Positions 6,766-57,885 of a stretch of 64,000 nt of DNA are shown one piece after another. Below the pieces are notes generated by a model. It did no database searches, was not told the DNA's origin, and saw nothing but the letters and a program-made list of their open reading frames with translations. Position 1 is the stretch's first letter; each line of letters begins with the position of its first letter. The position numbers and the translations under genes were made by a program. Source of the DNA: Octopus vulgaris (taxonomy: Eukaryota); contig OX597821.1 in NCBI GenBank assembly GCA_951406725.2, positions 42,532,001 to 42,596,000 on the forward strand, given 5' to 3'.

Positions 6766-6867
6766 TTAGACTTGTGAGTAAAAAAAGCACCTCTGAAGTG
6801 ATCTCCGTGATTAACCGCGTCAGGATGACGATAGGTAATGCTTTTGATATCATTTCCCTTTTTATAT

Positions 6868-8597: not shown

Positions 8598-9319
8598 CAC
8601 CAGTGCGACCCAAGCACTGCAACTACTAATGGAAGTGTGTGGACAGTAAGAGGAACTATGTTAGAAAATGAACTTCATTTGGTCACATTCCATTGAGAGT
8701 GTCTTGCTCAGATTATGAACATTTCAGCCGACCCTCATAATAATAAAAATTATTATACCTGCATTTGTTTTAATGTTAACATTGGAAAAATCCACATTTT
8801 TCATTAAAAAAATTAGGACCTGGGTTTGCACCCCCTTAGCAAATTTTGTTACTGAGTCACTGGTATGGTGTGGGACGTTGTCTCACAGTTGCTGACAGTA
8901 AACTTCATTTCTCCTTCTGACCAAGGTTCTAGCTGGTCAGCCAGACTTCGTAGTCACCGAAGTGTTAGTCATCACGAGTCATCACAAGCCGCCTCGCTCC
9001 GTTGTCGCTAAGTGACTACCAGGTTGAGTCGTCACCGACTAATTTTTGCTTGAGGTGTTCTTGCTTTTATAACTATCCAGAAGGATATATATATCATTGA
9101 GAACAATAGATGTAGTTGGTGGTCTTGTTATCTCTATTCTTGTTTTTGGTGAAGCAGAAGAGGTTAGAAAGAATCAAGTGGTGAAGACATTATTTCGGCC
9201 TAGCTAAAGGCATCTAGAAAATGTAAAACTACTGTCAGAGAAAAACCATTGTTCCACGATGAGAAAAGTTCTGTTGCAGTGTTAATTTAAATTTGGCTTT
9301 GGTGGATCGAATCCACTTC

Positions 9320-16318: not shown

Positions 16319-17554
16319 TCATTTAAAATATTTTAGAGTCTTCAATTTAGCGTGGACACAAACTTGACCTACTTCAATATGGTTATTTAACAAACCTCTA
16401 TTTTTTCTATACCTTAGAATTTCATAGGTCTCCATGGAGCAGAGTTGGCAACCAACCCTGTTATTTTTATACGGCATTGCTCTCCTAACTATTTCCCAAT
16501 TAAGGTTATAATTCCTGTTATTATTTTTGAGTTCCCAGATCTTACTTGAAAGTGTGGTGGTACCAGCTTTATGACGTAATTTAAAAGATGAGACGTGATT
16601 TCTAACTCTGTCTCTAAAATTTATCGTACAACCAATGTAAAAAAATTTGTTATTCTCAGTAGATATGGTACATTTATAGATTACGTTATTTTCCCCGCAT
16701 AGACCAGGTGCCGGGCATTTTGACTTAATTCTACACTTACACGCAGGAGGAACAACTTCAGATGTTGGATTATTCATGGGTAGATGTCTTATGTTCCTGT
16801 TATTTTGATTATCATGAGTATAATTATCTTTATTATTATTATTATTTTTATAGTTGGTGCTGCTATCTAAAGCATTGTTATTATTTATTGATCCTTCTGC
16901 TCCATCTTTTAGGTCTAAAGTCCTACCATGATTATTTACATTATTGGTAATGTTACTATTATTGCTAGTATTTTTATCTGACTGTATATTGTTGTTATAG
17001 ATATCACTGATATTTTCATTCTCTGTATTTTCTCTATTAGCCTTACTTCTATTATTAACATTATTACTTCTATTAATATCGATATTATTATTACTCCTAT
17101 TAATGTTAATATTATTATTAGTCATTCTGTGGTTACTGATTCCATCCATGTTTTGATAGTTACTATTGTTGCGTTTATTGTTGGTAGTATTATTATAATT
17201 GTTATTGGTATTCATGTTGGTATTATTATTTTTATTTTTATCTTTCCTGGCTAGCTTAATGTTGTTATTATTAATCTTAGCTATTAAAGTGGACATATTT
17301 GGGAGGGTTGAATAAGAAATCCTAACTGTTTTCTTAGAAATAATTCTATGATATCTATGAGAGATTGGGAAATTTTTTTCTAGAATTACTTTGAATTTGC
17401 TCTGTATATCCGATTGAATCGCACAGTTGAAAGGAATATTCAGCCATATTATATCTTTCTTATTAAATTTCCTTGAATTAGAATCAGGGTTCGTAGAATT
17501 ATTACTATTCATCTCATCAAAGTCATTATACTTATTACCATTATTTGTGTGCAT
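16319..17554 (-). CDS. PLE ORF C-terminal half: linker, CxC zinc motif and GIY-YIG endonuclease with a long Asn-rich insert
   Basis: IIWLNIPFN, RISYSTLPNM, CKCRIKSKCPAPGLC, VIY...FYIGCT..FRDRVRNHVSSF, TTLSSKIWELK, YNLNWEIV, CQLCSMET. Open for 411 codons. Confidence 0.85.
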   Translation of the reverse strand: MHTNNGNKYNDFDEMNSNNSTNPDSNSRKFNKKDIIWLNIPFNCAIQSDIQSKFKVILEKNFPISHRYHRIISKKTVRISYSTLPNMSTLIAKINNNNIKLARKDKNKNNNTNMNTNNNYNNTTNNKRNNSNYQNMDGISNHRMTNNNININRSNNNIDINRSNNVNNRSKANRENTENENISDIYNNNIQSDKNTSNNSNITNNVNNHGRTLDLKDGAEGSINNNNALDSSTNYKNNNNNKDNYTHDNQNNRNIRHLPMNNPTSEVVPPACKCRIKSKCPAPGLCGENNVIYKCTISTENNKFFYIGCTINFRDRVRNHVSSFKLRHKAGTTTLSSKIWELKNNNRNYNLNWEIVRRAMPYKNNRVGCQLCSMETYEILRYRKNRGLLNNHIEVGQVCVHAKLKTLKYFK

Positions 17555-19137
17555 CTTTGATTTATCTAATTCGATTTTATCCGAGTTACCTATGCTTTGG
17601 TCTTTTCTTCTATTTGAATTGTTGGCTTGTACGCTAGATTTGCGGTTACCGTGAATCTACTTCTACTTCTATTTCGGGCCTGGTCTATATTGCTGCTTAC
17701 GTGATTACTGATAACTTCTTTATTAGGAATATGTAAGTTCCCCTTATCAATGAATGTAATCTTTTGGCTGTATCCTGCCTTAGTTAACGCCGCATTATAA
17801 TGCTCAGAATGAGAGTTAAATAAGGATATATTTAACTCTCATTCTGAGCATTCTAATGCAGCGTTAACTAAGGCAGGATACAACCAAAAGATTACATTCA
17901 TTGATAAGGGGAACTTACATATTCCTAATAAAGAAGTTATCAGTAATCACGTAAGCAGCAATATAGACCAGGCCCGAAATAGAAGTAGAAGTAGATTCAC
18001 GGTAACCGCAAATCTAGCGTACAAGCCCAATAATTCAAATAGAAGAAAAGACCAAAGCATAGGTAACTCGGATAAAATCAAATTAGATAAATCAAAGATG
18101 CACACAAATAATGGTAATAAGTACAATGACTTTGATGAGATGAATAGTAATAATTCTACGAACCCTGATTCTAATTCAAGGAAATTTAATAAGAAAGATA
18201 TAATATGGCTGAATATTCCTTTCAACTGTGCGATTCAATCGGATATACAGAGTAAATTCAAAGTAATTCTAGAAAAAAATGTCCCAATCTCTCATAGATA
18301 TCATAGAATTATTTCTTAACGTACCCAAATAGGACTTAACCGAACATTGCTGATTCAAAAACATCTATATTTATACTTTAAAGTTGGTTTTCATACCCAA
18401 CCCAGTTCTGCAGAATCAGTGTCGCGACGGGAGCACATGGGTTGGGAGTTTGATCGGGAGAGGCGATCAGGTTGCATATGCCGACCCTTTTGAAAACACC
18501 ACTCCCATCATGTAACCCCATTTTGCCTATGGGTTGAGAACCCTTCCAGCAAGGAAAATAGAACGCTTAAAAGGGCCCCCGATCCTCTGTGTGAGAAGCG
18601 GTTATGTTCAGATCACAACTAAGTATATATATATATGGGCAACACACACACACATACACACACACAAACATATGCGTTCATACACCTATTGCATACATGT
18701 TTTTGCACGCCTTTGCCCCTGCCACTGTCCTACCACCACCTCCTACTCGAGTAATACCATCAATTGAAGCAAATTTGGCACCCGGACGTAAGTTTTGTCA
18801 CAGGAATAGAGAATACCTTCTCCCATAGAGATGTGAGAGTCATATCTCTCCTTTCGAAAACATGAACAGTTTCGAAACATTGTTTACAAAATAATAGCTG
18901 ATCGTTTGCGAAGGAGCGTGTCTACAGTCAACACGTAGGTCTTTTGCTCTGGTAACCTCTGCTCTCTCCCATGTTCACGCACGACTAGCCATATATATAT
19001 CGCTATGAGTAGAGCAACAGATTCGGCTAATTTGGAAATTAGTTGTGAAAAAACGGAGAATATCTTTTATATTGTGTATATAAATATACGGGCAAAACAC
19101 ACACACATTGCATACACGTGTTTTGTACGCATACATG

Positions 19138-24393: not shown

Positions 24394-24866
24394 AATTGAG
24401 ATAGGGGTTGTAAATGCAACCCTCTATGGGATAACGTATATCCAATATACTGCTAGTGAAGTACCCAACAAAGTTAATACATAAATGTTAATGATTGCGA
24501 TGCAATCAATTCATTTACTGTATTATATGGGCAAAGGTAAAATGATTTACCACAAATTACTAATACAAGATAAGAAAATGGAGAAATACATCTAAATCAA
24601 ATATCAATTACCAGATAATACTCAATCACATACTTTATTAAACCACCACATAAGAGACAGTAATATTCTTTTTTATATATATTCTAATTATTATACAACA
24701 TTACTCTTTTATGTACACTTTTTTATGTACATTCCTTTATGTACACTTATTTGTTCTGCTTTTTATATTTAACCCTACAGTCTCTTATGTGGTGAATAAA
24801 GTATGTGATTGAGTATTATCTGGTAATTGATATTTGATTTAGATGTATTTCTCCATTTTCTTATCT

Positions 24867-24909
<43 letters not shown>

Positions 24910-29853: not shown

Positions 29854-29908
<55 letters not shown>

Positions 29909-31710
29909 GTTAAAATGAAATAATTTTTATGATAAAAAAAATGCCTTAGTCATGGTGATGACTCAGGCATTTTTTTTATCATAAAAATTATTTGATTTTA
30001 ACCTTGTTCTCATGTTCTTTTAACCTTATTTTTTCTGGTTATATATGTAAGTACTTTGAAGTCATTTACCTTACAAAAAACTATACAGACATGCTAGACT
30101 TTTGTATGTGTTCAAATGGCTGGATGCACATGGTGTCAAATAAATTTCAATATCAGAGGGTAGGATAAGCTGTATGGAGTGCTTAGAAAACTCCGAAATG
30201 GTTGTCTTATACGACTGCTCTACTTAAAGATTAGCAGAATTTTATATCAAAGTAGGTTAAATCAGTACATAAAATATATATATTATTTATTTTGGAGCTA
30301 CATAAAATAGATCGAATTTACGGTTGAGTCAGAGAGCGACAGACAGCTAATAGACAAATGAAGAAACAAAGAGAGGTCATATGTTCATTATATCAGGCGT
30401 TGGACGCTATCAGCCTATGTGGACTAGATCCTACAAATATGAGGAGTTTGCAACATGAAGTACCTAACTCTTACTAGCATAGGGCTAGCATTAAAGCCGC
30501 TGACACTCGTATTTATTCACTCACTCCCACTCAATCTTTCTCTCGATATATTTCTTTTTTATCTACACACAACTAAGAAAATTTTCAAGTCTCTAATACA
30601 CTGCTATTTTTATATTTTTGGAGGCGAGAAAGGAGACCATCCTGTCACATGCCCTATTTCCTGCCCATAAACTTAAGGAAGAACTGCCTGATGCACGTGA
30701 TGTGAAAACATATAAGGTCATGGGTCATGTGACCCATGATATCAGGTGAAGTTTGAAACTTTCAGCCGTAAACCGTTATTCCTCTCAACCTACAGGTAAA
30801 CACAGTTGGACAAAGGAATCTGCACGAAACGTTTAGGCAGGAATTTATAATCATTGTTCCCCCCGACACATCCAATAGACTCAACACACTTCTAATGTAA
30901 AAAGGTTGTTTTATAAAGCAATTCAACAACAAAAGACAATATTGGGTATGATATAAATAACCAATTACATACTAAGCAAGTCTGTTCTGAAATACAAACG
31001 AGTAATTAAAAAAACCACTTACACTTTGCAGAAACAAATATTGTTGACAATTAGGTCAACAAAATTTATATTTGAATAGAGTGATTGTGTATATGTAAAA
31101 GGATACATTTATTTGGGCCAAGTTGTTCTTTACCAACTAGAAAATGGCCGCATTGTTTGTGTAAATCTGAGTGAACTTATACATTGTTATAAACTCACGT
31201 TCACTTTATTCTTCTCCTATATAATTCCTGTTATGTTTTTACAAGATGGTCTTTTGATAAAGCCGTGACGAATTTTTACATGAGGAAATATAAGAACGTG
31301 CAAATGAATGACAATTTTCTTTTCTCTTCCTTTAACTATACAGGACACGAACACGGATATGTTGGTATATGTAGTTTATGTACAGACAGGTAAATGTATA
31401 TTGCGACTTGTAAGATTAGCTACAGGTTGCTTTTGTAAACTATGAGCAGCCAGTCGCGTGTTCTTACAAAGCAAACGGAAATGTACATCCGGATTGTGAC
31501 GTCTAGCCTGTATATTAATGATAATATTAGCATATTTCCATGTCTGTAGGTATAATCAGGGTCGGTTGAAAGTTCGCAAGGAGCGTCACCTGATTTGAGG
31601 CACCACATTACATATCTGGAATCTTTCAAATAAAAGGGAAAATAAAAATAATAAATAAAATAAACACTTTATTCTTATATTTATTAAATTTTAATAAACA
31701 CTTTATTATA

Positions 31711-31902
31711 AACAATTGAAACGTGGAAGGTGTTTACAAGCCATTTAAAAACATACAACAACCGTTAAATTTAAATGTTGAAGTGAATCTAATGGTTTTT
31801 GTGTTTTTAAATGGCTTGTAAACACCTTCCACGCTGCAATTGTTTTTGCTTCAGTACACGATCTCAGATCAGGTCACTCGCTATGCAAATACATCTCCGT
31901 AA
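31711..31902. mobile_element. Fold-back repeat (PLE-type 3' end family), copy 1
   Basis: ~48-bp inverted arms followed by tail ...GATCTCAGATCA...ACATCTCCGTAA, same family as 40797-41154. Confidence 0.7.
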
Positions 31903-35020: not shown

Positions 35021-36586
35021 TGCTTTCAAATCTTGGCACAGTGTTCAACTGGTACTTATTTTATTGGCTCCCAAAGGATGAGAGACAAAATCACCCTCGG
35101 CGGTATTTGAACTCAACGTAAAAACAGACGAAATGCCGTTAAGTATTTTATCCGGCGTGCAAACGATTCTGCTGACTCGCCACCTCATCAAAATTCATTA
35201 ATATTAATGGTTTGGTTTCGAGTTGTATTTTTCCTTCTTCCTCATTCTTAAAAAAAAAAATTAAATCCCCTCGTTTTATGAAGCCATCTTTCATTCATTA
35301 AGATATCAATAGTGTACTTTCGAAGGCGGCGAGCTGGCAGAAACGTTAGCACGCCGGGCGAAATGCTTAGCTGTATTTCGCCTGCCGTTACGTTCTGAGT
35401 TCAAATTCTGCCGAGGTCGACTTTGTCTTTCATCCTTTCGGGGTCGATAAATTAAGTACCAGTTACGCAGTGGGGTCGATGTAATCGACTTAATCCGTTT
35501 GTCCGTCCTTGTTTGTCCTCTCTGTGTTTAGCCCCTTGTAGGTAGTAAAATAATAGGTATTTCGTCTGCCGTTACGTTCTGAGTTCAAATTCCGCCGAGG
35601 TTGACTTTGCCTTTCATCTTTTCGGGGTCGATTAAATAAGTACCAGTTACGCAGTGAGGTCGATGTAATCAACTTAATCCGTTTGTCTGTCCTTGTTTGT
35701 CCTCTCTGTGTTTAGCCCCTTGTGGGTAGTAAAGAAATAGGTATTTCGTCTGTCTTTACGTTCTGAGTTCAAATTCTACCGAGGTCGACTTTGCCTTTCA
35801 TCTTTTCGGGGGTCAATAAATTAAGTACCAGTTGTGTACTGAGGTCGATCTAATCGACTGCCCCCCCTCCCCCAAAATTTCGGGCCTTGTGCCTAGAGTA
35901 GAAAAGAATAGTATACTTTCGAGAAATATTCTGAGTTAAGAAGTTCAATTCGAGACCAAGAGGTTCATGGGTACGATCCCATTGCTCAACACCTTGGTGT
36001 CTTCTACTCTCGCCTTGACCTGATCAAAACTTTGTGAGAGGAATTTGGTAGATTCATATATATATACACCTGCGCTTATGTGGAATCGACAGATTCGGAC
36101 GTCAAAGCGCACAGCTGCTTGCACATATAATTATTATATAATATACAATATTGGTTTCAAATTTTGGCTCAAGGTCAGCAATTTAGAGGGAGAGAGTAAG
36201 ACCGTTACATCGACCTCAGTATTCAAGTGGTACTTTTTTTATCGACCCCAAAATGATGAAAGAAAAGGTCGACCTCGGTAGAATTTGAACTCAGAATGTA
36301 CAGACGGACGAAATATCGCTAAGTATTTTGCCCGGTGCGATAACAATTCTGCCAGCTTGCCATCTTAATCGTAATAGTTTAAAATTTTGGCACAAGGCCA
36401 GCAAGTTCGGGTAAGTAGGTAAATCGATTACATCGACCTCAATACTAACTGGTACTTACTTTATTGATCCTGAAAGGGATGAAAGGCAAAGTCGACCGTG
36501 GCAGAATTTGAACTCAGAATGTAAAGACGGACGAAACGTTGCTAAGCATTTTGCCCGGCGCGGTAACGATTCTGCCACCTCGCCGT
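35021..36586. mobile_element. Cluster of tRNA-derived SINE family A (one minus copy, a plus-strand tandem trimer, two minus copies)
   Basis: Head GGCGGCGAGCTGGCAGAA..., B-box-like GAGTTCAAATTC, and core GTCGACTTTGCCTTTCATCCTTTCGGGGTCGATAAA.TAAGTACCAG. Confidence 0.85.
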
Positions 36587-37889
36587 CTTTGACCCCATAA
36601 ATATTAAATATTAATATTAATATGACAAAAAGATAATAGCGGAATAGATTAGGAGTGGGGATAGGGGTTGGTGTATGGTGCACGTTTATTAAGCTTGAAT
36701 GTGTATATGTGTGCGTGTGTATGCAAGCGTATGTGTATATGTTTGGCGTGTTATTGGGAATGACCGATTGGTGTACTTTGTGGGATTAAAATGTCTGTAA
36801 GTCCTATAGGTTCTATGAATACAAGGAGTAATCCGATCCGTGATTCCATTCAACAGAATGTTTTTTGGGGGAAAAAAGATTTCCAAACTTCCTTGAAGGC
36901 ACAAGTTGCGTGGCTTTCCGTTTCCAGAATAGGATTTACCTCTGGTGAGGATGTTCTATGGATGTCGTAAGGTAAAGACTTGTTTATTAAATCATAAATA
37001 TCGTTAGCTATAGATGTTTGGTTAGACCTGTTGGGATGTTTAAAGGAACAATTGTAAGAAAACTAATAGCTAACAGAAATTAACAGACCTTGACTTCAAT
37101 GTTGTTAATTTCAACCGTTATATAATACAGCGACCACTCATTATCTTCTAAGGAACATTGATGGAACGTGACACGGTTGGTAATGAAAAATTTTTTTTTA
37201 ATTATAAAAACTGCACTAATGGAATTTGATGTATTAAGGGGAGCTTTGCAGGGCTGGTTTATTGTATTTATGAAGAAGATAAAGTCGAAAATCCAGGGGG
37301 AAATTGAAAAACCGAACAAAGATTGGATAAATAAGGATTAAAATTTTGAAACGGAAACATTGGAGGAAATATTTTGAGCGACCTAAATTCCCTATCTTCA
37401 TGTTTTGGAGTGGTATAAGTTGATTTTTTTTTTTGTACTATAAAAGCAAAGTAAGAGCTAGCTAGTTGTGATATGGGTATGACACTTGTGAAGATGGATT
37501 AAGGCCAATCATTTAATCCCTGGTTGCTTTGCTTACCCTTTGTGAAAAGTAGGATTACAGGTTGATTAGCTGTGAACTATACGCAGTCCTTTTGAACTAC
37601 GTATACAGTAAGAGTTCGTTAGTAACGGTAAAGAAAATAAAACATTGTGATAAGGCTGAAAATTAAGAAATCTTAGAAACCACATTGTCCTGCATGCATT
37701 AAAATAAAAACAAGATAGATACGGCTGGGATACTCTCCTCTTTTAGAACTTATATAGGGCTAAACAGCAAAAATAACAGCAGCAACAACAACAACAACAC
37801 CAGCAACAACAACAGCCATATAACATAAGACTTGTATATTTAGCTTTGCTCTACAATAACTTTGGATTTAAACTGAGATAACATCCAGG

Positions 37890-38304: not shown

Positions 38305-39498
38305 CGTCCAGGTATAGCAAACAGGATCGTAATTTTGGTGTTATTTGGCGTCATGTCAAAGTCCCAGACGTTCTTTTAATTAAAATACAATAAAGTATCT
38401 ATTCCTTCTCATTACGTTCTGGCAGATTTGAACATGAATAAGTTGATCGCTGTTGTTTTTCGTCATCGAAAAGCATCTCCTCCCTTTAGACGATGTGCGT
38501 TTATAACACGCACTATCCATTGATGTAAGAGACTTTGAGACGCCATACTGTTTCGATTTTATTGTGTCTTCTTAGTCAAAGCTACTATCGAATGAATTAA
38601 TCTAATACGATTACTGACTTTTGTTTATAGAAATCAGCAAACAAATTATTTGCTGATGTGTGCTGATGTCTTCCAAGCAGATAATAACTCATGCGATGAA
38701 TGCAGAACAGCGAGAATCTATGCACTAACAAATCTATTCGTTCTCAATACGTTCGGACAAATTCGAACAGGAATAAGCTGTTAGATTTGTTGATCCGGTG
38801 GTAGCTATAGAAAAACTATAAAATAGAAACGCCTTACATCAATGAATCGTATTTATTATGAACACATATCGTCTAAAGAGAGATTTTCTCCGATAACGAA
38901 ATACAACAGTGATCAGCATTTTCACGTTTGAATCTGCAAGAAAGTGTTAAAAATAAATAGACACCTTATTCCTTGGATTTTCGATGATTCATGTGTAACT
39001 TCTGAATTATTATACTTTTATAGATATCCAGAATTAATCACCCTGTGAATAAAATGCAGCATTTCCTTAAAACAACATTTAACACTTAAATTAATTCTGT
39101 TACTGGCAAATTGTGGTTCAAGGAAGGGCCTGCCTTAATTGAGATGTTTCATATACGCTCGTGCAACTTATAAAATAAATCTTAATTTTGGCAGGACCTT
39201 TTATAGAACCACCACTTGCCAGTAACAGAAACCTCAACCTTGTGTTTATAAGAAGGAGGCTGAATTTTGACATTTTTTGGAGATGGAGGCAGTGTTTTAC
39301 AACCTGTTATAGTGTACCGCATAGTTTTTTTCCTAATAATATATGTAATTATACAATATGTAATATGTATTCCAGTTAAAACTGACATGCATCATTTTTC
39401 TAGTTGAAGCTTGTTAATCTCCATCCAATCTCTACCAGATTCCATCCACTTAATACAAATAGCTTTTTTGTCAATTAACCTTTGTCACGCCTTGAAGT

Positions 39499-40264: not shown

Positions 40265-40796
40265 ATACTGTATCTCAAAACAAATCTTTTCATGTCGAGA
40301 TATTATTACGTTCACACAAATACACACACAATCACACGTTTCTAAGTCTAATTAATTAGTTGATTCATTAATCGATTAACTGAATGTCTAAATAAATTAG
40401 TTTCTTCTGCAGTACTGTATTACTGTATTTCTTCAAGTAAAACCGCAGTTTCATCTGATCTTTTGTGTTCAGAATTTTTATTCAACTAAATAACCAGTCC
40501 TTAACATTGAACATCTACGCAACCCAACCTTAAATAGCCTTCATTGTTATGTAAAATCAAATTATTGTATGTAAAACTGACACCTCCGGGAAATAAACTG
40601 ATTCATTTTTTTCTTTTTCTATTTTTTTTTTTTTGTTATTCAAGTCACAATCCTTATCAATGGCCTCGAATGTCATTAAAAAAACTTAAGATCCTAAGTT
40701 TGTATTTCGTTCGCTATCATTATTTGTGTCATTGTGTATTTGATCTGTATGAGCTAGTTTATTCTGTTCCCGTTTTAGTACCACAGTAATAATATT

Positions 40797-41154
40797 ACAA
40801 TTGCAGCGTGGAAGGTGTTTATAAGCCATTTAAGAAACACACAAAAGCCGTTCGATTCACTTCAACATTTAAGTTTAATTTGTCAAAATATTTTCGTCGC
40901 TAAAATCCGCGACCTGTTCACTGACAAAAATCCGTGCTGCATCTCTGCCAGTTCTTGTAGACAGTACAAGTGGCTTGGAGGACCACCACCGTCTCCTCCA
41001 AGCCCAGCAGAATAGCGTCCACTAGCCAGGCTACAGAAATGCAAACCCTGTGTGTTTCTTAAATGGCTTATAAACACCTTCCACGCTGCAATTGTTTTCG
41101 TTTCAGCACACGATCTCAGATCAAATTACTCGCTATGCGAGTACATCTCCGTAA
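40797..41154. mobile_element. Fold-back repeat (PLE-type 3' end family), copy 2, with a hammerhead-like motif and captured LINE sequence
   Basis: ~47-bp inverted arms at 40797 and ~41049-41095; same tail as the 31711 copy. Confidence 0.75.
40879..40928 (-). ncRNA. Hammerhead-like motif with G3:C8 core variant
   Basis: Minus strand: TTTGTCA-GTGAACA-G-GTCGC-ggatttta-GCGAC-GAAA-ATAT-TT-TGACAAA. Perfect 7-bp stem I and 5-bp stem II. Confidence 0.55.
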
Positions 41155-41346
41155 TTCAAAAAAAAGTAATAATATTATTTCTTGCTTAAAATATATAAAC
41201 CTACAAATCTGTAGCAAGGCTTTCACCAAGTTTCGAATCATCACGCCCTAACTATATTTTCATAAACGGTAAGACCAGCTACGCATGAAAGAATTTGTTC
41301 AGATTCTTATACAACTCCAAATACTAAATCAGTATTTCACTCTCCT

Positions 41347-41560
41347 AAGGTGGCGAGCTGGCAAAATCGTTAGCACGCCGGGCAAAATGTTTAGTTGCAT
41401 TACGTCCGTCTTTACGTTCTGAGTTCAAATCCTGCCGAGGTCCACTTTGACTTTCATCTTTTCGGGCTCGATAAAATGCGTACCAGTTAAAAACTGGGTC
41501 GATGTAATCAACTTACCCCTCCCCTGAAATTGCTGGCCTTGTGTCAAAATTTAAAATCAA
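41347..41560 (+). mobile_element. SINE family A copy
   Basis: AAGGTGGCGAGCTGGCAAAATCGTTAGCACGCCGGGC...GAGTTCAAATCC. Confidence 0.85.
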
Positions 41561-41829
41561 TATTTCATCCTCCTTCCGGCATTATTTTGATAGACTGGAT
41601 TAGCACATCATCAGATAGAGATTTCTTTCTGAAGAAAGAGAAATTGTATTATAAATACACCAATGAACCTTTTAGGATGTACAAGTTTCCATAGAGAAAA
41701 AAACAAATGTTTCAGAGACAGTGGCGGCTCGTAGATAAAATTATTTGGGTGCTGCATCAGAAAATTTCTAGCTGTTGTTTTAATATTGTTCTCCTTATTT
41801 GAAGCGGGCAGCGGTGTTTGAAAAAAAAA

Positions 41830-42990
41830 AACATGATGAATTATGGGAATTTCAGATCCTTAGAGTTCACTTCTTCGGAAGAGGAATTGATAAAAACCCT
41901 GGACATTGCAGACATAAAGATGGATTTCGCAACGGTAGCCAGAAGTCACCAAAAACAAATTAATTTGGAAGAAATCGGCAAACATAAGGAGATATTAAGA
42001 AGGGACGGACACAATGTGAAGGTGTCTCCTCCCTAAAATGCAATACAAAGTGAGAAAGAAAAAATAATTATTTACAGAACATTTTCCGTAAAGAACAGAA
42101 AAATTGGGGTAATGACGGGCGCACAAATTGAAAGGGTGTTAAAGCCAATATGGAGAGAGATTGTTTACTTCAACAGAGGCGAAAATTTGGAACTGTAGAG
42201 GTGCGGTTCCGAGATGCAGCGACCCCTTTAAAAACGGAGGAGGTAGTAGTGCTTCTACCCATATACCTTGGAAGACATAACCCCAGAAATAGATGTAGCC
42301 TGGCTTGTGGACGCTATTCTGCTGGGCTTGGAGGAGAAGGTGGTGGTCCTCCAAGCCACTTGTACTGTCTACAAGAATTGGCAGAGGCAAGGTCTTGATA
42401 TGTTGATCCAGGCTGCCCCAGAAGACCTAGAAAAAATGATAAAGGCTATAACGATTGAAGGGTCACATTAGGGTAGACTGTCCTCCACCACCCGCAGAAA
42501 TGCAAACCAGGCCCGTGAGCGGAAAGGAAGCCGCACCTCCGTCTCTGGCAGTAACCAGTGGGGAAACAGAGTTAGGTGAAAATAAAGAGAAAGACGAATG
42601 GGAAAAGGTGGGAAAAAGGAGAAAGAAAAGGAGGAAAACATCCTGTGAGTGATGAGCCCCATCCCACATCCACCTGACTCCCACCCAAACCCACTCTGCA
42701 TCAACCTTCCCCTGCAGACACCAATCCTCTCCCCGTCCCATCCGACACGGAAAAAATGTGCACATGCACACAGGAACCCTAAATTTCCCAACCCCTGCTA
42801 TGTAAGAAAAGTAAAGAAATAAAGTACATCGTGTTTTACGAGGAAGCAAATACCAAACTTATGAATGAAATCTTTTGTTGAGACAAGACAATATATGTGA
42901 ACACATATCTTTGTGAGGAGGTGTCCAGGAATTTGGGTTGCATTATAGTCGACCCTCTATATGAGGAGCGACTAAAGGAATATGAAGAGA
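41830..42990 (+). mobile_element. LINE (Tx1/L1-like) ORF1/gag-like relic
   Basis: RKFGTVEVRF, a zinc-knuckle remnant KGHIRVDCP and a basic WEKVGKRRKKRR stretch, with frameshifts. Confidence 0.6.
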
Positions 42991-44299
42991 ACATTAACAC
43001 TTAAAGCGCAACGAGCCACGATCGTGGCCGTCAGGCACAGGTCGACAGGCCACGATCGGGGCCCAGATAGATGCATTTAATTTATGGGCGTTTATGGGGC
43101 TCTAATGTCACTTAAACGCTCCGGTACCCCTCCACACACACAACCACACACACACAGAATGACTTTACAGATGATGTAAAACTTGCCACTGTCATACACT
43201 AAGAAGATATTTTAACTAATTTTTATTTTTTATGTGTGCATGGTAGTCTCATTTTCATAAAATGTGCTCAGCAGTCCATGCTATGTGAGTACGAATTCCA
43301 GTGCTTTATAGGTTAAATACGTAGCAAAGAATGCCCACAATGGTGAGTCTATTGAAATTAAAAGAAAACTTTAATATAAACATTTTACAATGTTTAACAG
43401 TTTAAAATTTCTTTTTAATAAAAGAAAAAAGTATGTTTGGAAGGTTAAATGAAGGCGCCCGGACGTGGGGTCGAGTGTCATCATTTCATTACTCATTTTA
43501 TTTTATTTTCATACATCCTTCCATCCGTTTTTGTGTCCCCACTTTCATTGTACCGTCCTGTTTGTTTACGTATTGTCCCCTCTATATTTAACCCTCTGTG
43601 GGCAATAAAGATAAAGTTGCTTTAATATTGTGTAAAAGGAAATAAATATATAGAAAGAAAATTTATGCATAAAGTTGATCGGTTTACTTTTATCCACTGC
43701 CGGGTAGTGTTTAATTTGTTCACTGAACACCGCCGCGAATTCCCCCTTGTTTTTCAAAAATTCCCCCTAAATCATAAAATAGGTGAGGGGGAATGTGTCC
43801 TATTTTTCAAATCCTGGCAGCAGTACTGAATCTGGAAGCAGGATAATAATTCAATTCTAATTTTATCACATTCAAGAATATAAACACGTTTTTAAACACA
43901 ATACACATGGAGTCAAAAAGAAACACTACCTTCCACCAGAGCACCAGGGTCGGCACTGTCGCTCACGCAGTGCTCTTTCTCGCTCGGACATGTGAGCATG
44001 CGCACAACAGCCAAACACCGCATCGCTGGAACTGTGAAGGGCACAGTTCTATACAAGGATTTTTGTATTTTTTTCATAAACTAGATGATGGCTACTGACA
44101 TTAAACTTAAGGATTATATAATATACAAGTATAAAGAAAGAATTAAAGAAAAAAGGACTCATTATATTGAATGTTATCGATAATATCGAGTGCAAATAGG
44201 GGGTGCTGCAGTTCCACAGTGCCAATACACGAGCCGCCACTGTTCAGAGGGTAAATGAATATATTTTTTACTTGTTTAATCTAGAGGTAGGGGTATTGC

Positions 44300-46060
44300 C
44301 CATAACCTATGTAGCACCCCACCCCCAAGACAGATCTTGATGCTGTTAATGTTCCGTTTAAACTGTAGCAGTTCAACACCTGCAGAAAGACATGAGCAGG
44401 GAGATTCCAGAAGGCTGATGTTCTGCGACGAAAGGACTGGGTGTATTGGTTAGTGTGGGACCAATGGGATTGGATGCACCAGAAGTGATGAGGAGTAGAA
44501 TGACGACTGGATCGAGATTGCTTGAGTGGTGGAGGTACGAGATCAGCTATCTCGTAGGAACATAGGCCATTATAGTAGCAATAAAAGAGAGAGAGGAAAA
44601 TCAGCATGTTTGTGGGTTAGAGGCTGGCGTGTGTCCATTAGTAATTAAATTTCAATTAGTCAAGCAGCCCTTCCCTGGATGCAACCCAGGGATGGCTGTG
44701 TGCGTAGTAGCATTGTGCCAGATGTGGGAGCAGTGCTCTGTTATGGAATCACTTCATTTTCTCAAGACGTTCGCTTATAGAATCAATGTAGGTTTGTCAT
44801 TATGTCTTGATGATGCTGGGTGTTGAAATATTTGCTGACCCTGAAGAGAAGGGTCAATTTTGGGGATGCGGTCCAAGCTATGCTAAGATGTGCCTTTGCT
44901 TGGAGAAATCCTTAGTGATTGGGGGGTCTCTCATTTGGAGTGACTATGAAAGCTCTCACTGAGAGATGCTCACATTCGGTGGAAGTGTGAGGCAGTTATA
45001 TTTTTCTTGATATGAGTATTGCTTAAGATTTTTGCAGTTAAAAGATACAAGGATGGCATGGATCTACTGAAAGATTTTCTCAAAACTTCTACTTAAAGAA
45101 TCGATGTAGATTTGTGATTGTGTTCGGATGATACATGTTTAGAGTAAGTTAGGGAGGAATGAGGGGTTGTGTTGTCTGCATAAGAATGGGCGTTGTTAGA
45201 TGTAAGTAGGAAGAAAGTAGAGCCAAAACGAAAACCTGGGGAAGATGAGAATGAATTGAGACTGGAGCAGAAAGATTCTGTCAATTTATGCTTTGATAGT
45301 GCGATCAGAAAGAGTTGAGAGATGGATTGAGACCGAAGGCGAGAGGTTTTAGTGGGAGATATTTGAATGCCAGATACAGTTGAAGGCTTTGCTGATGTCT
45401 AGGGCAACATCGTTGTTTTCGCCGAACTTCTCTAAAGGAAGAGCCCACTGGTGAATGACATTAGAGAGTTGATCGCCAGTGGATCTGGCTCTGCTGAAGT
45501 CGTACTGGTGATCACTGAGAGGGATCGAGGCGTGAGAAGGTCAGCTTTAATGGCTGTCACTATTACTTTTAGAGATATTTGAGATGAGAGCAAAAAGGTC
45601 CCAGTTGACTGGGTCATAAGGGTTGGTTTTCTTTGATCTGAATCGTGCTTCCAAATGCCAGGGTATATTTCCGTAAAGAGCGAGATATTAATTAGTTTGG
45701 TAAGTATATGAGCAAGTTCTGCGATACAGCGCTCGAATGAACTAAAAGAGACAATGTCAGAGCCAGAGGCCTAGTTTATTTGAAGCAACCGGGAGTATTT
45801 CCACACTTGGCGTGTGTGTACAGGGTGAGGAGCCTGGTGGAGTGGAACGAGCAAGATTTGGAGCGGCTTAGTTTGGGTATTGTGAAGTTAGCTGAAGAGC
45901 AGGCGGCGAAGATGGAAGCTTTCTCCATATGGTTATTGCATTTAGAGCCATCATTGTTTAGAATAGGAGAAAAAGAGGACTCCGCAAAGTTGGAAAAGAT
46001 TCTTTTAGGATTGGTTGTAGTCTTGGAGGAAGGGATACCTTAAAGATCGTATAATGCACG
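44300..46060 (-). mobile_element. Degenerate CR1/Jockey-group LINE ORF2 (RT)
   Basis: Minus-strand VALDISKAFN.IW (~45360-45415), HSYADNTT (YADD relic) and C-terminal LFY.YYNG.CS.EIA..VPP..RTS.FWN.LP..VF. Confidence 0.75.
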
Positions 46061-51272: not shown

Positions 51273-52797
51273 AGTAAGTGTGCTCCCCCCGACTTTGTTT
51301 TCTCATAACTTCCAGAAGAATGGATATTTTTAATGCAATTTTCTTTCTCAAATGTGCTTCAGATGATGCAGATTTTAGAATGTTGCGGAAAAATTTTTTC
51401 TCCGTGTTAGGAGTTTCTAAAAATTCACAAGCCGGCTTTGTTTCCTCATATCCTTCAGCAAAATGGATATTTTGTGAAATTTTCTACAAATATTTGTCAG
51501 ATGGTGTAGATTAGTTAGATCGGAATTTAATATGGGGTGCAGTTATACATATTGACACGCATCACAATTATATTTTTGTAATTTCAAGTTACATTTTGTG
51601 ATGTGTTAATGTGCGAGCCTGCTGTTTTTTTCCCTTCTTCTCACATCAAACTCCGAAAAAAAATAACCATATTTCTGGAAGTTATAAGGAAAAGTCAGCA
51701 CACCTGTGAACGTAAACAGCTTTCATTTCAGTTAACTTTCTGTATTGAAGACAATAGTAATTTTGAATTATTTTAAGTCACTATTCGACCATCGGCTTTT
51801 TCAACAAATCTAATTTCAGTACTATAGAATAGCGAATGTAGCAATCAATCGTAGAGCTTTGTTCACGAATAGCAACCTTAATCTTTTCAAATGTTGAATA
51901 ACTACCATGCTCATGTATCTTTGAACCACCATTACTCAAAATCATTCAGTTAACTTTTGAAAAAGTCTTGATATTCAATTCTTCCTTAGTAGAGAACCAA
52001 AGGTATTCAATACCCGCGTGGGCTTTAAATATTTACTGGGATTGACCAAATTCTCACTGTGCTTCCCTGTAAAGAAGTGTGGAATGGTCAGTTCTGTGTT
52101 GTGGATTTCTCAAATGAAAATTGCTCGGTTTTTGGTCTACGAGCACTTATAATATTGAGCAGTGTCTGCTCTTCTGCCTTGGCATTTGCCCAAGGAAATG
52201 TTTTTTTTTTTTTTGCTGTCTTATCTTGACTGACAGTCTCCATTGGTCTCTTGCACACTTTGTGGAAATATCTACAATGATTCCACCGATAACTATTTGA
52301 TACCAATAGCATCATTCATTTTCATGGACGTGCACCAATCTGTAACTGATGTGGTTTTGTCCCGTTCGCATTAAACGACTTCAATTTTTTTTTTAAGTCA
52401 TCCTTTCGGCAAAATTTTGCACTATGCTACCCTAGCAATTCTATGAATGATTGGTTCTTAAAACACTTGGCTGCTGTTAATTTGTGAACGTCATCATTCG
52501 ACACGTGACAATTGTTTTTTTTTTTTTTTTTTCTCTCAGGAAACTCGCTTCAAAAACCACTTAATGTTAAAAATCTAAAATCTACAAAAATAATGAAAAA
52601 CTTTTACATACCGATTTTTAAAAAATTTCTGTACTAAAAATAACAGCCAATTCTTTTTCAATGAATACTGATAAATATCTTGAAGGAAGAGAACTAAGCA
52701 AGGAAAAAATGTATTGAATTATAAAAGGAAAAGAAACCATTTTAGTTTACATAGACGTTTATCAATAAATTAAAACACTGACTTGAAAAGGGATCTG

Positions 52798-53355
52798 GGA
52801 TCTTTTCCTTTTGAACGGCACATGTCAACACAATTTCTAGTTAACTAAACACTTTAAAACTTCGTATACTGGTAGAATGTGTAAAAATAAAACATTTTTT
52901 CTCTTGGCTTTCTTGAGAAAATTGTAATTCGTTTGTTTAATGTAGTTTAATTTTTCGAATTTTAACCAATGAATCGTCTCTAGTGAGCTAAAATCATTTG
53001 CTGCGTCTAAAACTGAGACAACATCCTGTCACTAACCCTAACCCTAACCCTAAATTTTTTTTTTCTTGTTAAATTAATTTGTTACGCGTGTAAATTGTTA
53101 TCCTTAAATTAATTTAACAATTAAGAAAAGAAAAATTAGGGTTAGGGTTTAGTGACAGGATGTTTGTTTTAGACGCAGCAAATGATAGGTTAAAATTCGA
53201 AAAATTAAACTACGTTAAACAAACGAATTACAATTTTCTCAAAGCCAAGAGAAAAAAATGTTTTATTTTGACACATTCTACCAGTATACGAAGTTTTAAA
53301 GTGTTTAGTTAGCTAGAAATCGTGTTGTCATGTGCCGTTCAAAAGGAAAAGATCC
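52798..53355. mobile_element. Fully palindromic fold-back MITE with telomere-type repeats
   Basis: Perfect 8-bp TSD GGGATCTG (52790-52797 and 53356-53363), GGATC...GATCC ends, ~270-bp mirrored arms carrying (CCCTAA)3 and (TTAGGG)2. Confidence 0.9.
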
Positions 53356-56118
53356 GGGATCTGTTATATTTTTCGTTTTAGAATTTTCAGTTGACTAATC
53401 GACCCCAGAATTTTTTAGATTTTCAATCAGCGCATGAAGTTAGGCCTAGACGGTCTCACGAACATGCTAGAAATAACGGCCAAATCTCTTTTTATAACTC
53501 GGTTCTATTTTTTGGTTATTCTCTAATCGTTTTACTGGTTTCATTCACTGGACTGCAGCCTTGAATTTTCAGTCGAATGTATCGATCCCAGAATCTTTAA
53601 ATTTTCAATTAGCACACAGGTCTCTCCACATGCCTTTTTGTGTTACGCAAACAAAAACGGAAATCGCAATTGTAAAAAATTATTTTCCAAAATTCCAATT
53701 AAACAAAATAGTCAATCGAAAAACAGTGTCAAAGTAGCTGTCCCTCACAATGCTATGTTCCCTGTGCTTCAATTATTTTTCCTCGTTTTTAGAATTTTAA
53801 AGATTGAAAATAAATCAACCGTAACATCAATAATAGAATAATTGAACAGACTCTTTACTACTCAATGTACATATTGTCTGAATTCTAACAAAAGGGAAAA
53901 CATTTACTTCTAGAAATGTGTAGAAACAAAAACGATAAGTACGTTTGAATGACTAGCATTCGGCGCCATAATTCTGTTAGACCTTCATCGGCCGGAGAAA
54001 ATTCAAAAGGTCAACTTATTCTCATTATCTGTAAGTGCTGAGAAAAGAAAAACAAACTTTAAATTTTAAAATGCTGATTTTTTTTTTTTTTTTTTTTTTT
54101 TTTCCCGACCAAAAGTTCAAGCTGGTGCCCCAGCATGGCCGCAGTCCAATGACATAGATTTTTACAAAATAAAATGGATTATAAAAATATTTCAAGATAT
54201 TTGGCTTTTATTTCTAGCATGTGGAGATACCTTCATGTGATGGTTGAGTTCTGGGGTCGTTACATTCGACTAAAAACTCAAGGTGGTACCCCAGCATGGC
54301 CGCAGTTTAATGACTGAAACAAAAGGTTAAAAAATCGAAAAATAATCGGAAAATATAACTGGGTCTTTTGGAAATGTCTGAAATTCACTGAAAACGCTTT
54401 ACATTTCGAGCATCTCCAAATGGTATCAAGGTATATTGAACCCGCCCCATGATACACAATTTGTCATTGTTTCGCATGCGTTTTTTATTTATTTATTTAT
54501 TGAATACATATTCAGCTTAGTATTTTGTTTGAGAAAATTGAAAGTTAATGCTTTCATTATCGCATTTTATTTGCCTCGGGTTAATTTTTCTCTAACGGAA
54601 AAAAAAATAGGACAAATCTTGATTCGTTGATTCTTTTGATATTCAAAACTTTGGCAAAGTGACTGCAGCACTGCGTCAAAAGAATATTCCACGGCCACCA
54701 ACTAATCTTTAAGGAAATTAATGTGGCATACTAAACTAAAAAATCACAATAAGGCGAACTTCGAGTATTAGAGCCCCACTTTGTCAAACTGCCATTTCGT
54801 TTGGAGATCGTCGATTTGGGACTAAACAGACAGATGTCTTTTGTACAAAATGTTTAAACTCGTTGGCGAATTTCTTTTGACTGAAATGTTCCAACGAATG
54901 GGATTGCCTTTTTATAAAGTAATTGGAAGCAGGCGATAACATTAGATTGGGGCTAAGAATAAATGGAACTTAATAAATTTTCCTAGGAGAAAAACGTAGT
55001 GAGATAGATAGGGAGACCTGTTTAAAGTTAACTTGCGAGATCTTAATAGCAGCAGTTTGGCAATTAAAGTAGACAACTCATATTGAAGATCACTCAAAAG
55101 CAGTGTTGTTTCTCTTCGTGTAAATGTAAAAACGCTGTGAGTGACTCCACTTTCACTTTGTCAATCAGCAGGTAGCGTCATTTTGTTCAGCGGCCGAGTT
55201 TTCTTTTCTTTCTTTCTCATTCAAGCTTTGTGAGCTCTCGTGGGAGGAGGATATGGTTGCGTCAGATCGTTTAAGAAATGAAATATGGATTTTTTACCAT
55301 TTTTCTCTTCTGTTAAAGAACTTTTGGCCTTTTAGCTTTTATTTGGTCTTTGACTAGTTAATCACTGACGACCATTAGTTATTGCAGTAATTGCTTTTCT
55401 CTCCCGAGTTTCTTGCTTCGACATGGATGGATTTAACCTGACATTTTTCTACTGCTGAGGAACAAAAGAGAAACTGAAATACTAAATTCACATTAATGGT
55501 TTAAAAACTAATGCAAATGACTCATTAAAAGAATTATATTTAGTGGATCGCAAACTCGGATTTGAATAGCCTGCAAAATATTTTCTTGGAATAAACGATA
55601 GGAAGAGTATTTGGAAACAAAATTCTTGTAAATAATAAAAATTTAACATTGTAATATTTTGTAAAAGGAAAATTTCTACATGCTTTTTTAAAATTTTATT
55701 AATACTAACTAAACGAATTGTGCCATTTCCAATTGAGGTGATTAAACACCATCTTGGTTTAGGCAAATTGCTGATCCAATACGAGTGGAGTTGTAGAAAT
55801 GCGTCCTTTGAAGTTCCATACCTCATAGGAAAGGGAAAGTGCAGTATTCATCCGGTCACCATTCTTTGCCTACAATAGAAATTACGATTCTGAATATTTT
55901 TTCCGGAGATCATTTTTTACATCTTTGCCCCCATTTTCCATACGTTTGCCACGAGATATGAGACTCCAGGCGACAACTGTTATGAATCTTAGTCCAAATG
56001 CATTTCACTCGAGACCTTCCCGCACTTCCTGTACGTTGTGGGAATGTTTAAACGTGGAATTTTCACATCCCTCTCCCCCAATTTTATTAAACTGCCTTAA
56101 ACAGTAATCCGAATGTAA

Positions 56119-56702: not shown

Positions 56703-57062
56703 TTTAGGCACAAGGTCTGAAATGTTTTGCGAGGAATATAGTCGATTACATCTACTCCAAAGGACGAAGGGCAAAGTTGACGTCGGCACAACTTGAACTT
56801 AACGTAAATCCGCAAGAACTACCGCTAAGCATTTTGTTCGGCACGCTAATGATTCTGCTAGCTCGCTGCCTTAAGTTGTCAATGTAATATTCAACAATGG
56901 TTTCAAATTTTGGCTCAAGGCTTGCAATTTTTAGAGGAAGGCGTATAGTCGATTACATCCACCTCCGTAATCGACTGTTATTTTATTGATCCCGAAAGGA
57001 TGGAAGACAAAGTGAACTCGGCATTTCTTCTGGCTCACTACATTCTGCCAGCTCGCCGCCTT
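56703..57062 (-). mobile_element. Two degenerate SINE family A copies
   Basis: Both end in ...CTGC.AGCTCGC.GCCTT, the reverse complement of the SINE A head. Confidence 0.75.
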
Positions 57063-57174: not shown

Positions 57175-57885
57175 CTTTTACTTGTTTCAGTCATTTGACT
57201 GCGACCATGCTAGAGCACCGCCTTAATGGGTGTTAGTCGAAGAAATCGACCCCAGGACTTATTCTTTGTAAGTCTAGAACTTATTCTATCGGTCTCTTTT
57301 GACTAACCGCTAAGTTACGGGAGCATAAACGCCAGCATCGGATGCCAAGCGATGGACACACATACGACTAGCTTCCTCCAGTTACCGTCTACCATATCCA
57401 CTCAATGCTTTGGTCGGTCCGCGGCTATAAAAGACACTTGCCCAAGGTGCCACGCAGTGGGACTGAATGTAGTTGAGAAGCAAGCTACTTACCACACAGT
57501 ATAACTAACTTTGCAGTGCCTCTCGAATTCAATGACTTAAGAACCATTGCCTCGGTTTCTGATTTTTAAAAATAATGATCTGGTGTGGCTGTGTGGTAAG
57601 AAGCTTGCTTCCCAACCACATAGTTCCGGGTTCAGTCCCACTGCTTGAGACCTTGGGTAAGTGTTTTCTGTAGCCTCGGACCGACCAAAGCCTTATGAGA
57701 GGATTTGATACAGAAACCCGTCGTGTGTGTGTGTATCAACCATCGCTTGACACCAATCTTGGTGTGCTTACGTCCCTGTAACTTAGTGGTTCGGAAAAAA
57801 AGACCGACATGAGTACTAGGCTTACAAAGAATGTCTTGAGGTCGATTTCTTCGACTGATTGCAGTCAAATGATTGAAACGAGTAC
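57175..57885. mobile_element. Head-to-head pair of SINE family B copies
   Basis: Minus copy ~57175-57500 and plus copy ~57581-57885. Confidence 0.8.

What the first reader, a model, noticed from the sequence alone, without database searches (positions are those of the whole stretch)
40797..42508. Fold-back retroelement end has captured an antisense patchwork of the neighbouring LINE ORF1
Seen: between the inverted arms of the fold-back element, 40943-41035 is the reverse complement of 42294-42386 (93 bp, 3 mismatches by eye). It is followed by CAGAAATGCAAACC (41034-41047), identical in direct orientation to 42495-42508, and preceded by GCTGCATCTC (40936-40945), the reverse complement of 42211-42220. 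The sister copy at 31711 has no such insert. Established: PLE insertions often have an inverted 5' segment, and both RT template jumping and polymerase-theta end joining copy nearby sequence using microhomology. Inference: during insertion the element sampled local DNA or RNA in several short jumps, placing a foreign-transposon segment between repeat arms next to a ribozyme motif. If this recurs genome-wide it could be a route to ribozyme-processed antisense RNA against other transposons; that functional idea is speculation.
Basis: partly seen in the sequence, partly recalled or inferred. Interest (0 to 1): 0.8.

Follow-up and report, generated by a model that had tools for sequence, protein, structure and literature searches.

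The report
Penelope insertion sealed with neighbouring DNA
A truncated Penelope-like jumping gene in what is likely an octopus genome holds, exactly where its two mirror-image halves meet, two short pieces that match a decayed transposon gene about 1.2 kb away; this is likely a one-off scar from copying nearby DNA while the insertion was being closed, not an antisense defence device.

Summary
Between head-to-head arms of a Penelope-like element (PLE) with a 12-13 bp target duplication lie a 93-bp inverted copy of 42294-42386 (90/93) and a 14-bp direct copy of 42495-42508, both from a decayed zinc-knuckle ORF1/gag-like gene 1.1-1.3 kb away. Three letters shared by insert and neighbour differ from most other family contigs in public assemblies, which favours the local copy as donor. 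The claimed third piece (10-mer) is chance-level and probably PLE sequence. The element shows PLE hallmarks: ORF start, one-sided tail, minimal hammerhead motif. Best reading: the two inward-growing cDNA ends were joined after short microhomology-guided template switches onto nearby duplex DNA. The defence idea fails here: the ribozyme strand carries the captured piece in SENSE orientation, and the insert is predicted to disrupt the ribozyme fold. Templated junction inserts are known for L1, R2 and break repair, and host DNA between PLE repeats is known in a rotifer; a donor over 1 kb away at a PLE fold-back centre was not found in my searches. Genome-wide recurrence could not be tested (no genome held).

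The parts
40785..40796 (+). Left target-site duplication (12 bp; 13 with the ambiguous A at 40797)
   Evidence: identical to 41165-41176/7
40797..40944 (-). Left arm: inverted, 5'-truncated, tail-less PLE copy (ORF codons 1-11, leader, hammerhead). Inner end 40942-40946 is inferred
   Evidence: rc matches right arm 47/47 and sister copy 89%; family depth about 1.2-3.5 million to bin 40884-40954 and joints from 40939/40942/40946
40879..40928 (-). Minimal type I hammerhead-like motif: 6-7 bp stem I, core G3-U4-G5-A6-A7-C8-A9 (G3-C8 swap), extra nucleotide before a 5-bp stem II, GAA, palindromic helix III region, U at the cleavage position. Activity untested
   Evidence: only hit of my descriptor in the window; 1 of 5,000 arm-size shuffles hit, 0.12 hits per shuffled 64 kb; fold z -3.4; no Rfam hit at gathering score
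40936..40945 (+).
   Evidence: (table 5c)
40943..41035 (-). Captured piece 1: 93 bp, inverted copy of 42294-42386; antisense to the ORF1-like gene on +, sense on -; contains an 11-bp hairpin (40972-41004)
   Evidence: 90/93; hairpin
41034..41047 (+). Captured piece 2: 14 bp, direct copy of 42495-42508; 2-nt overlap (CA) with piece 1; followed by one unexplained C at 41048
41049..41158 (+). Right arm: 5'-truncated sense PLE copy with ORF start (41063-41155, 31 codons) and a one-sided tail of about 60 nt (41096-41154/8) absent from the left arm
   Evidence: 90% to sister right arm over 104 columns; 28/31 aa to the N-terminus of Octopus sinensis XP_029654200.2; frame also open in the sister copy
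41165..41176 (+). Right target-site duplication, preceded by an A-run 41158-41164
41346..41564 (+). Very high-copy SINE-like repeat lying between the element and the donor
   Evidence: related copies at 35039-36592 and 56750-57023; depth in millions with loose ends at 41346 and 41564; 'SINE' label is recalled, not from a call
41803..43000 (+). Donor: decayed ORF1/gag-like zinc-knuckle gene (stop, frameshifts, deletion near 42460 removing most of the knuckle). End near 43000 is by eye
   Evidence: 45 of 47 hits align to this family (2 long unrelated proteins aside), named ones from Octopus; 2 of 15 scanned carry zf-CCHC; atlas lead to CCHC/RRM and ZCCHC3-like clusters
42294..42386 (+). Donor of piece 1
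42284..42290 (+). Second copy of the first 7 nt of piece 2, 4 nt from the end of donor piece 1: possible U-turn and slip point
   Evidence: post hoc chance about 0.01-0.017
42495..42508 (+). Donor of piece 2
31712..31902 (+). Sister copy: same arm start, same tail, 9-bp target duplication, no insert

Best explanation
This is a truncated head-to-head Penelope-like insertion whose central junction holds two pieces matching the neighbouring decayed gene, likely copied from that nearby double-stranded DNA by short microhomology-guided template switches while the insertion was being closed. Shown: arms, target duplication, ORF start, tail, hammerhead-like motif, the two pieces and their junctions (2-4 nt overlap, 2 nt overlap, 0 nt plus one extra base). 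Inferred from PLE biology: both target ends primed cDNA inward, one from the tail-less and one from the tail start site, and both stopped early. Inferred from the junctions: one free cDNA 3' end engaged the duplex 1.1-1.3 kb to the right, copied one strand, turned onto the other strand (a 7-nt repeat beside the turn point would ease the slip to 42495), and was then joined to the other cDNA. Which end did it, and whether the PLE reverse transcriptase or a host polymerase did the copying, is not resolved. The product is likely a functionless scar.
For: Insert sits exactly at the arm-arm junction inside an intact 12-13 bp target duplication. Both pieces map within 215 bp of one locus 1,117-1,331 bp away. 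Insert and neighbour share T at 42370, T at 42368 and T at 42328, whereas other family contigs laid at 42370 read C (X1 6 contigs, depth 387.6 of 533.4; X3 4, 106.7 of 132.2; X5 4, 20.7 of 27.3; X6 6, 275 of 330), similarly at 42368, and 2, 2 and 3 contigs in X1, X3, X6 read the other letter at 41001 (=42328). Contigs keeping the insert's letter at 41001 have about single-copy depth in X1 (59.5) and X3 (29.5), two studies; the left flank-arm junction is in contigs without differences in X1, X3, X6. PLE protein extends both strands and starts at two internal sites whose interval is the tail (PMC11167929, parts 1-2 of 4 read). Two-piece inverted inserts from one locus with 0-4 nt outer and 2-11 nt inner microhomology are documented at yeast breaks (PMC11724301, abstract and sections 19-20).
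Against: Three mismatches separate insert and donor while the arms (47/47) and target duplication (12/12) are perfect; this is not significant (Fisher p 0.28) but needs later mutation, copying errors or another allele as template. At 42306 donor, insert and most family contigs show three different letters. The shared-letter test is incomplete: contigs that fit the insert better are not counted at 42368/42370, 296 rows were not shown, and T42328 perfects a hairpin so may recur. No listed contig spans the whole insert; junction contigs reach only 24-25 letters into the arm, under the tool's 31-letter rule; X5 and X6 show no contig with the insert's letter at 41001. 93 nt from over 1 kb away is atypical of polymerase-theta inserts (3-30 bp, template within about 50 bp; PMC7165422 passages) and of L1 templated inserts (within 15 bp; bioRxiv 2024.08.27.596794 passage).
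Confidence: 0.6

Rival explanations
1. Post-insertion repair: the element first inserted as a plain, longer palindrome; a later break at the hairpin centre was repaired with a templated or captured fragment from the nearby locus.
For: Perfect 47-bp arms could be the remnant of a longer palindrome; the two-piece inverted topology matches break-repair inserts in yeast; X6 has the left junction contig but no contig with the insert's letter at 41001.
Against: Asymmetric arms are normal for this family without any insert (sister copy); missing contigs in X5/X6 can come from graph simplification or low depth, and the tool states that contigs show presence, not absence.
Confidence: 0.2
2. RNA template jumps: each cDNA jumped from PLE RNA onto a + strand transcript of the neighbouring region (left cDNA at 42386, right cDNA at 42508) and the two were joined through the 2-nt overlap, a nested twin-priming geometry.
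For: Each piece is adjacent to the arm that would make it from a + strand template alone; the extra base with no overlap at 41048 suits a reverse-transcriptase jump (inference); R2 and L1 make extra-template and multi-RNA junctions (PMC11371274 and PMC11702581 passages).
Against: No transcript is shown; a crude exon scan gave one strong + strand candidate only (31344-31389); jumps would be to internal sites; the 7-nt repeat beside the turn point fits a strand switch on duplex DNA (post hoc p about 0.01-0.02).
Confidence: 0.12
3. The insert came from a distant, closely related copy or transcript of the same ORF1-like family, and the neighbour is a coincidence.
For: Three mismatches to the neighbour, two of them synonymous in the ORF1 frame; some family contigs were laid on the insert rather than on the donor.
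Against: The family is low-copy in the laid assemblies (5-8 contigs at 42370, at most 18 showing the common letter at 42306), so landing 1.2 kb from a 97%-identical copy by chance is very unlikely; shared T42368/T42370; a second piece matches the same neighbour.
Confidence: 0.05
4. Functional cassette producing ribozyme-processed antisense RNA against the LINE-like family.
For: A + strand transcript would carry 93 nt antisense to the ORF1-like gene inside a 47-bp hairpin, and could pair with the donor if co-transcribed.
Against: Hammerhead and antisense are on opposite strands; the insert is predicted to block stem I; only one hammerhead copy is present though minimal motifs need a partner and cleave poorly (PMC4209133 parts 1-2 of 4); a G3-C8 core only partly restores cleavage in the anole PLE; the local target is decayed.
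Confidence: 0.02
5. Assembly artefact (chimeric read at a fold-back).
For: No listed contig spans the whole insert.
Against: Three differences from the donor; clean target duplication; single-copy-depth contigs with the insert's letter at 41001 in two studies; the X1 donor contig starts at 42339, right after a mismatch site.
Confidence: 0.01

Closest known systems
Endonuclease-containing Penelope-like element insertions with an inverted 5'-truncated copy, one-sided tail and pLTR hammerhead (Arkhipova 2013 PMC3846280; Craig 2021 PMC8557442; Frangieh 2024 PMC11167929; Cervera and De la Pena 2014 PMC4209133)
   Same: Inverted truncated copy, tail at one end only, ORF N-terminus inside the repeat, short AT-rich target duplication, minimal hammerhead with extra nucleotide before stem II and palindromic helix III; tail-less end lies 117 nt from the start of stem II, against 111-118 nt for the anole element.
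   Different: Tail about 60 nt rather than 30-40; G3-C8 core; no RT or GIY-YIG sequence left; foreign DNA at the centre.
Host DNA captured between Penelope pLTRs in Adineta vaga (PMC3846280; part 1 of 5 and passages)
   Same: Unrelated sequence between PLE repeats, inside a target duplication; template jumps proposed.
   Different: There the captured DNA is kb-sized and read as mobilisation in trans between repeats; the passages I saw give no donor next to the insertion. Here about 105 bp in two pieces from 1.1-1.3 kb away, at the head-to-head junction.
Templated insertions in L1 insertions (bioRxiv 2024.08.27.596794; PMC11702581) and R2 snap-back / extra-template junctions (PMC11371274); passages read
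   Same: Non-element sequence under 250 bp copied into a retrotransposon junction; inversion junctions closed by short microhomology.
   Different: L1 templates typically lie within 15 bp of the site; here over 1 kb and two pieces of opposite orientation; different element class.
Break-repair templated insertions: polymerase-theta TINS (PMC7165422) and two-piece inverted insertions in yeast (PMC11724301)
   Same: Short microhomologies, direct plus inverted pieces, two fragments from one locus with a gap of about 100 bp.
   Different: TINS are 3-30 bp from within about 50 bp; the yeast events are at plain breaks in mutants, without a retroelement.

Membership tests
Penelope-like element (EN+) | Inverted 5'-truncated copy adjoining the sense copy | tested here: met
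   same layout in the sister copy
Penelope-like element (EN+) | One-sided 3' tail | tested here: met
   41096-41154/8 only on the right arm, in both copies; about 60 nt, longer than the published 30-40
Penelope-like element (EN+) | Minimal hammerhead motif in the repeat | tested here: met
   descriptor hit and fold; no Rfam hit at gathering score; cleavage not testable
Penelope-like element (EN+) | ORF N-terminus within repeat plus tail | tested here: met
   31 open codons in both copies; 28/31 to the start of XP_029654200.2
Penelope-like element (EN+) | Target-site duplication at AT-rich site | tested here: met
   12-13 bp here, 9 bp in the sister copy
Penelope-like element (EN+) | Telomerase-like RT and GIY-YIG endonuclease in the parent ORF; clade | tested here: inconclusive
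   P0048 residues 1-222 found no longer relative among 563 candidates and no usable atlas hit; its Pfam hits are an appended methyltransferase only
LINE ORF1 (L1/Tx1-like) for the donor | RRM-like region plus CCHC knuckle | tested here: inconclusive
   relatives carry zf-CCHC (2 of 15 in Pfam); atlas scores 0.89-0.92 to CCHC/RRM/ZCCHC3-like clusters; knuckle mostly deleted in the local copy
LINE ORF1 (L1/Tx1-like) for the donor | Downstream ORF2 with endonuclease and RT | tested here: inconclusive
   none of 8 open stretches from 41803-46040 had a Pfam hit; the one RT hit is at 9238-9645, 32 kb away; not all frames were scanned
Polymerase-theta templated insertion (TINS) | Template within about 50 bp of the break; tracts mostly 3-30 bp | tested here: not met
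   93 nt from 1.1-1.3 kb
Ribozyme-processed antisense RNA cassette | Ribozyme and antisense segment on the same strand | tested here: not met
Ribozyme-processed antisense RNA cassette | Expression and small-RNA production | not testable with these tools
   only DNA contigs were laid

The most novel reading that the evidence does not exclude
Penelope fold-back insertions are routinely closed through a long-lived, invasive cDNA end that samples duplex DNA 1-3 kb away, so a measurable share of this very high-copy octopus family (and of PLEs in other animals) carries shards of neighbouring DNA between its arms. The shards' strand, distance and microhomology would read out the still unknown joining step of PLE integration and mark PLEs as a source of small local inverted duplications set inside hairpins.
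Probability: 0.35. Interest if true: 0.6.

Novelty: new variant of a known kind. Interest (0 to 1): 0.36.

Why it matters
How the two cDNAs of a PLE insertion are joined is open (PMC11167929 leaves the later steps unvalidated). A junction insert with an identifiable donor records that step. This family's arms are at roughly ten-thousand-fold or higher contig depth over single-copy DNA (a rough figure, not a copy number), so one genome could supply many such records. As a single copy it is a scar with no shown function.

Tried and rejected
No whole genome is held, so the family-wide test was not run. The arm pattern found 0 loci in metagenome, prokaryote-genome and viral contigs. Rfam: 0 matches in the window. 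Word-index protein search with the donor piece: 0 of 27 candidates; with P0048 1-222: 0 of 563. No RNA holder listed for the stretch; this says nothing on expression. Laying contigs at 80% likeness was swamped by the SINE-like repeat and the arms: 842 joints, 3,212 loose ends and 296 difference rows were not shown, so an empty-site allele and other copies' centre sequences could not be seen; 4 of 24 listed runs were laid. Crude exon scan did not establish a host gene or its strand. Rejected: the 10-mer as a third jump; A-to-I editing of a sense RNA template as source of the mismatches (sense changes are T>A, A>C, T>C); classic short-range polymerase-theta TINS; using amino-acid D (WLVD) as a local marker (it occurs in 5 of 28 aligned relatives). 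Earlier-finding look-ups by place and by sequence returned nothing. Literature searches for a published PLE case with a local donor: (and 31, 36, 37, 38, 72 for related systems); none found, but only open-licence PMC and bioRxiv were searched and no supplements were read; supplements of PMC3846280 and of bioRxiv 2024.08.27.596794 may list donor distances that bear on novelty.

Full report
Observation. 40943-41035 is the reverse complement of 42294-42386 at 90 of 93 letters; 41034-41047 equals 42495-42508; 40936-40945 is the reverse complement of 42211-42220. The arms 40797-40843 and 41049-41095 are 47 of 47 complementary and the unit is flanked by a 12-13 bp direct repeat. The sister copy at 31712-31902 starts at the same family position, ends in the same tail, has a 9-bp direct repeat and no insert. 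The 14-mer is beyond chance (2 matches, 0 expected; 1 of 20,000 shuffled fillers). The 10-mer is not: it occurs a third time at 63586 and 711 of 2,485 random positions have such a match within 3 kb. Other family contigs follow the left arm to 40939, 40942 and 40946 before joining elsewhere (table 5c), so the 10-mer is probably the element's own leader.

The element. The right arm carries an open frame from 41063 (31 codons), also open in the sister copy, that is 28 of 31 identical to the N-terminus of Octopus sinensis XP_029654200.2, a gene model whose only Pfam hits are a C-terminal methyltransferase; I read it as a PLE ORF start fused to a host gene by the annotation (inference). The host is therefore likely an octopus. 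The left arm is an inverted copy that lacks the last 60 or so bases of the right arm, the one-sided tail described for PLEs (PMC8557442 passages; PMC3846280 part 1 and passages). On its minus strand lies a minimal type I hammerhead-like fold at 40879-40928 with a G3-C8 core, an extra nucleotide before stem II and a palindromic helix III region, the features listed for PLE minimal hammerheads (PMC4209133 parts 1-2). It was the only hit of my descriptor in 64 kb; 1 of 5,000 arm-size shuffles hit and 25 shuffled windows gave 3 hits in all. Rfam found nothing. The tail-less end is 117 nt from the start of stem II, close to the 111-118 nt initiation site of the anole element; this may be coincidence. 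RT and endonuclease could not be linked, so clade is open. Contig depth over the arms is 0.3-3.5 million against about 6-70 for unique flanks, i.e. a very high-copy family.

The donor. 41803 to about 43000 is a broken reading frame. A 73-residue piece found 47 proteins, of which 45 align to one family and two are long unrelated proteins; named members are Octopus records, 2 of 15 scanned carry a zinc knuckle, and one relative maps to CCHC/RRM and ZCCHC3-like clusters. ORF1 of a LINE is plausible; no ORF2 was seen beside it.

Is the neighbour the source? Four public assemblies were laid at 80% likeness (4 of 24 listed runs). At 42370, where donor and insert both have T, other contigs read C: 6 contigs and depth 387.6 of 533.4 in X1, 4 and 106.7 of 132.2 in X3, 4 and 20.7 of 27.3 in X5, 6 and 275 of 330 in X6; the remainder is about one single-copy contig (two in X1, one of them a gapped paralogue). 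42368 behaves alike (6, 4, 3, 5 contigs), and at 41001 (=42328) 2, 2 and 3 contigs of X1, X3, X6 differ from both. With a low-copy family, a second piece from the same neighbour and 1.1-1.3 kb distance, a local donor is the strong reading. Limits: contigs that fit the insert better are not counted at the donor, most rows were hidden, T42328 perfects a hairpin, and at 42306 family, donor and insert all differ. The three mismatches against perfect arms are not significant (p 0.28).

Is it real? Contigs with no differences cross the left flank into the arm in X1, X3 and X6, though only by 24-25 letters. Depth of about one copy keeps the insert's letter at 41001 in X1 (59.5) and X3 (29.5), which are different studies, and X3 differs from the window in the flanks. 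X1 may be the assembly's own source. X5 and X6 show no such contig, and X5's donor is one unbroken contig (42247-42496); this could be true absence, low depth or graph simplification.

Mechanism. Junction 1 (arm to piece 1) overlaps by 2-4 nt (inferred from the family joints), junction 2 by 2 nt, junction 3 by none with one extra base. The first 7 letters of piece 2 also occur at 42284-42290, 4 nt from the end of donor piece 1 (post hoc chance 0.010-0.017). That suggests a turn from one donor strand to the other and a slip along the 7-nt repeat, which needs duplex DNA. PLE protein nicks and extends both strands and starts at two internal sites, so two inward cDNA ends must be joined; I infer that one of them engaged the nearby duplex first. 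The same two-piece inverted topology with similar microhomology sizes is reported at yeast breaks. Classic polymerase-theta inserts are shorter and closer; L1 templated inserts (22 cases in that study) usually come from within 15 bp. Later repair of a palindrome break and twin jumps onto a + strand RNA remain possible.

Function. The hammerhead is on the minus strand, where the insert reads sense to the ORF1-like gene; the antisense strand has no hammerhead. In the minus-strand RNA the insert's end is predicted to pair with stem I: mean stem I pairing probability is 0.96 alone, 0.94 in the arm, 0.014 with the insert and 0.077 in the whole element. The right arm stops before its hammerhead, so no partner lies in cis. 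The defence idea is not supported at this locus. A + strand transcript would form a 47-bp hairpin with the antisense piece in its loop, but no expression data were laid.

Novelty. Junction inserts of local DNA are known for L1 and R2 (passages), and host DNA between Penelope repeats is known in Adineta vaga. I found no paper describing a PLE fold-back centre filled from a donor over 1 kb away (searches; open-licence PMC and bioRxiv only). Two unchecked notes of this scan describe the same layout in other genomes, with donors 1.3 and 3 kb away; I did not test them and count them as leads only. Other papers seen: PMC13282606 passages (PLEs and L1-Tx1 are present and recently active in O. vulgaris), bioRxiv 10.64898/2026.07.22.740005 (term search, nothing relevant). 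Verdict: real, most likely a one-off templated scar, of moderate interest as a probe of how PLE insertions are closed.

Noticed in passing
window 16319-18319: A different PLE-like remnant: 445-aa open frame on the minus strand with a long asparagine-rich stretch followed by a C-terminal GIY-YIG-like motif and Cys/His residues (motif recognised by eye, no Pfam hit), overlapped by a 490-bp near-perfect inverted repeat (17336-18316, 97.6%, 6-nt spacer). N-rich linkers were reported as peculiar to Adineta vaga Penelopes.
   Followed up: partly
P0048 / XP_029654200.2: An Octopus sinensis gene model that begins with this family's ORF start and ends in a methyltransferase domain: either an annotation fusion or an exonised PLE.
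   Followed up: partly
window 40813-40954: Family contig depth falls about 2.5-4-fold between bins 40813-40883 and 40884-40954 in all four runs, near the predicted hammerhead cleavage site (40885/40886); many copies may stop there, but 70-bp bins cannot resolve it.
   Followed up: no
window 9023-9169 and 11203-11349: 147-bp inverted repeat pair (94.6%) 2 kb apart, one arm beside an RT remnant (9238-9645, RVT_1 hit); another possible local inverted copy.
   Followed up: no
window 24563-24871, 29907-30004, 39095-39230, 52792-53361, 57235-57856: Several further fold-back elements of other families.
   Followed up: no
window 6854-8714: 52-bp tandem array, 29 overlapping hits, inside an L1/Tx1-like remnant on the minus strand (label by eye).
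   Followed up: no
window 31344-31389: 46-bp candidate + strand exon with strong splice signals, best score of a crude scan; unverified.
   Followed up: partly
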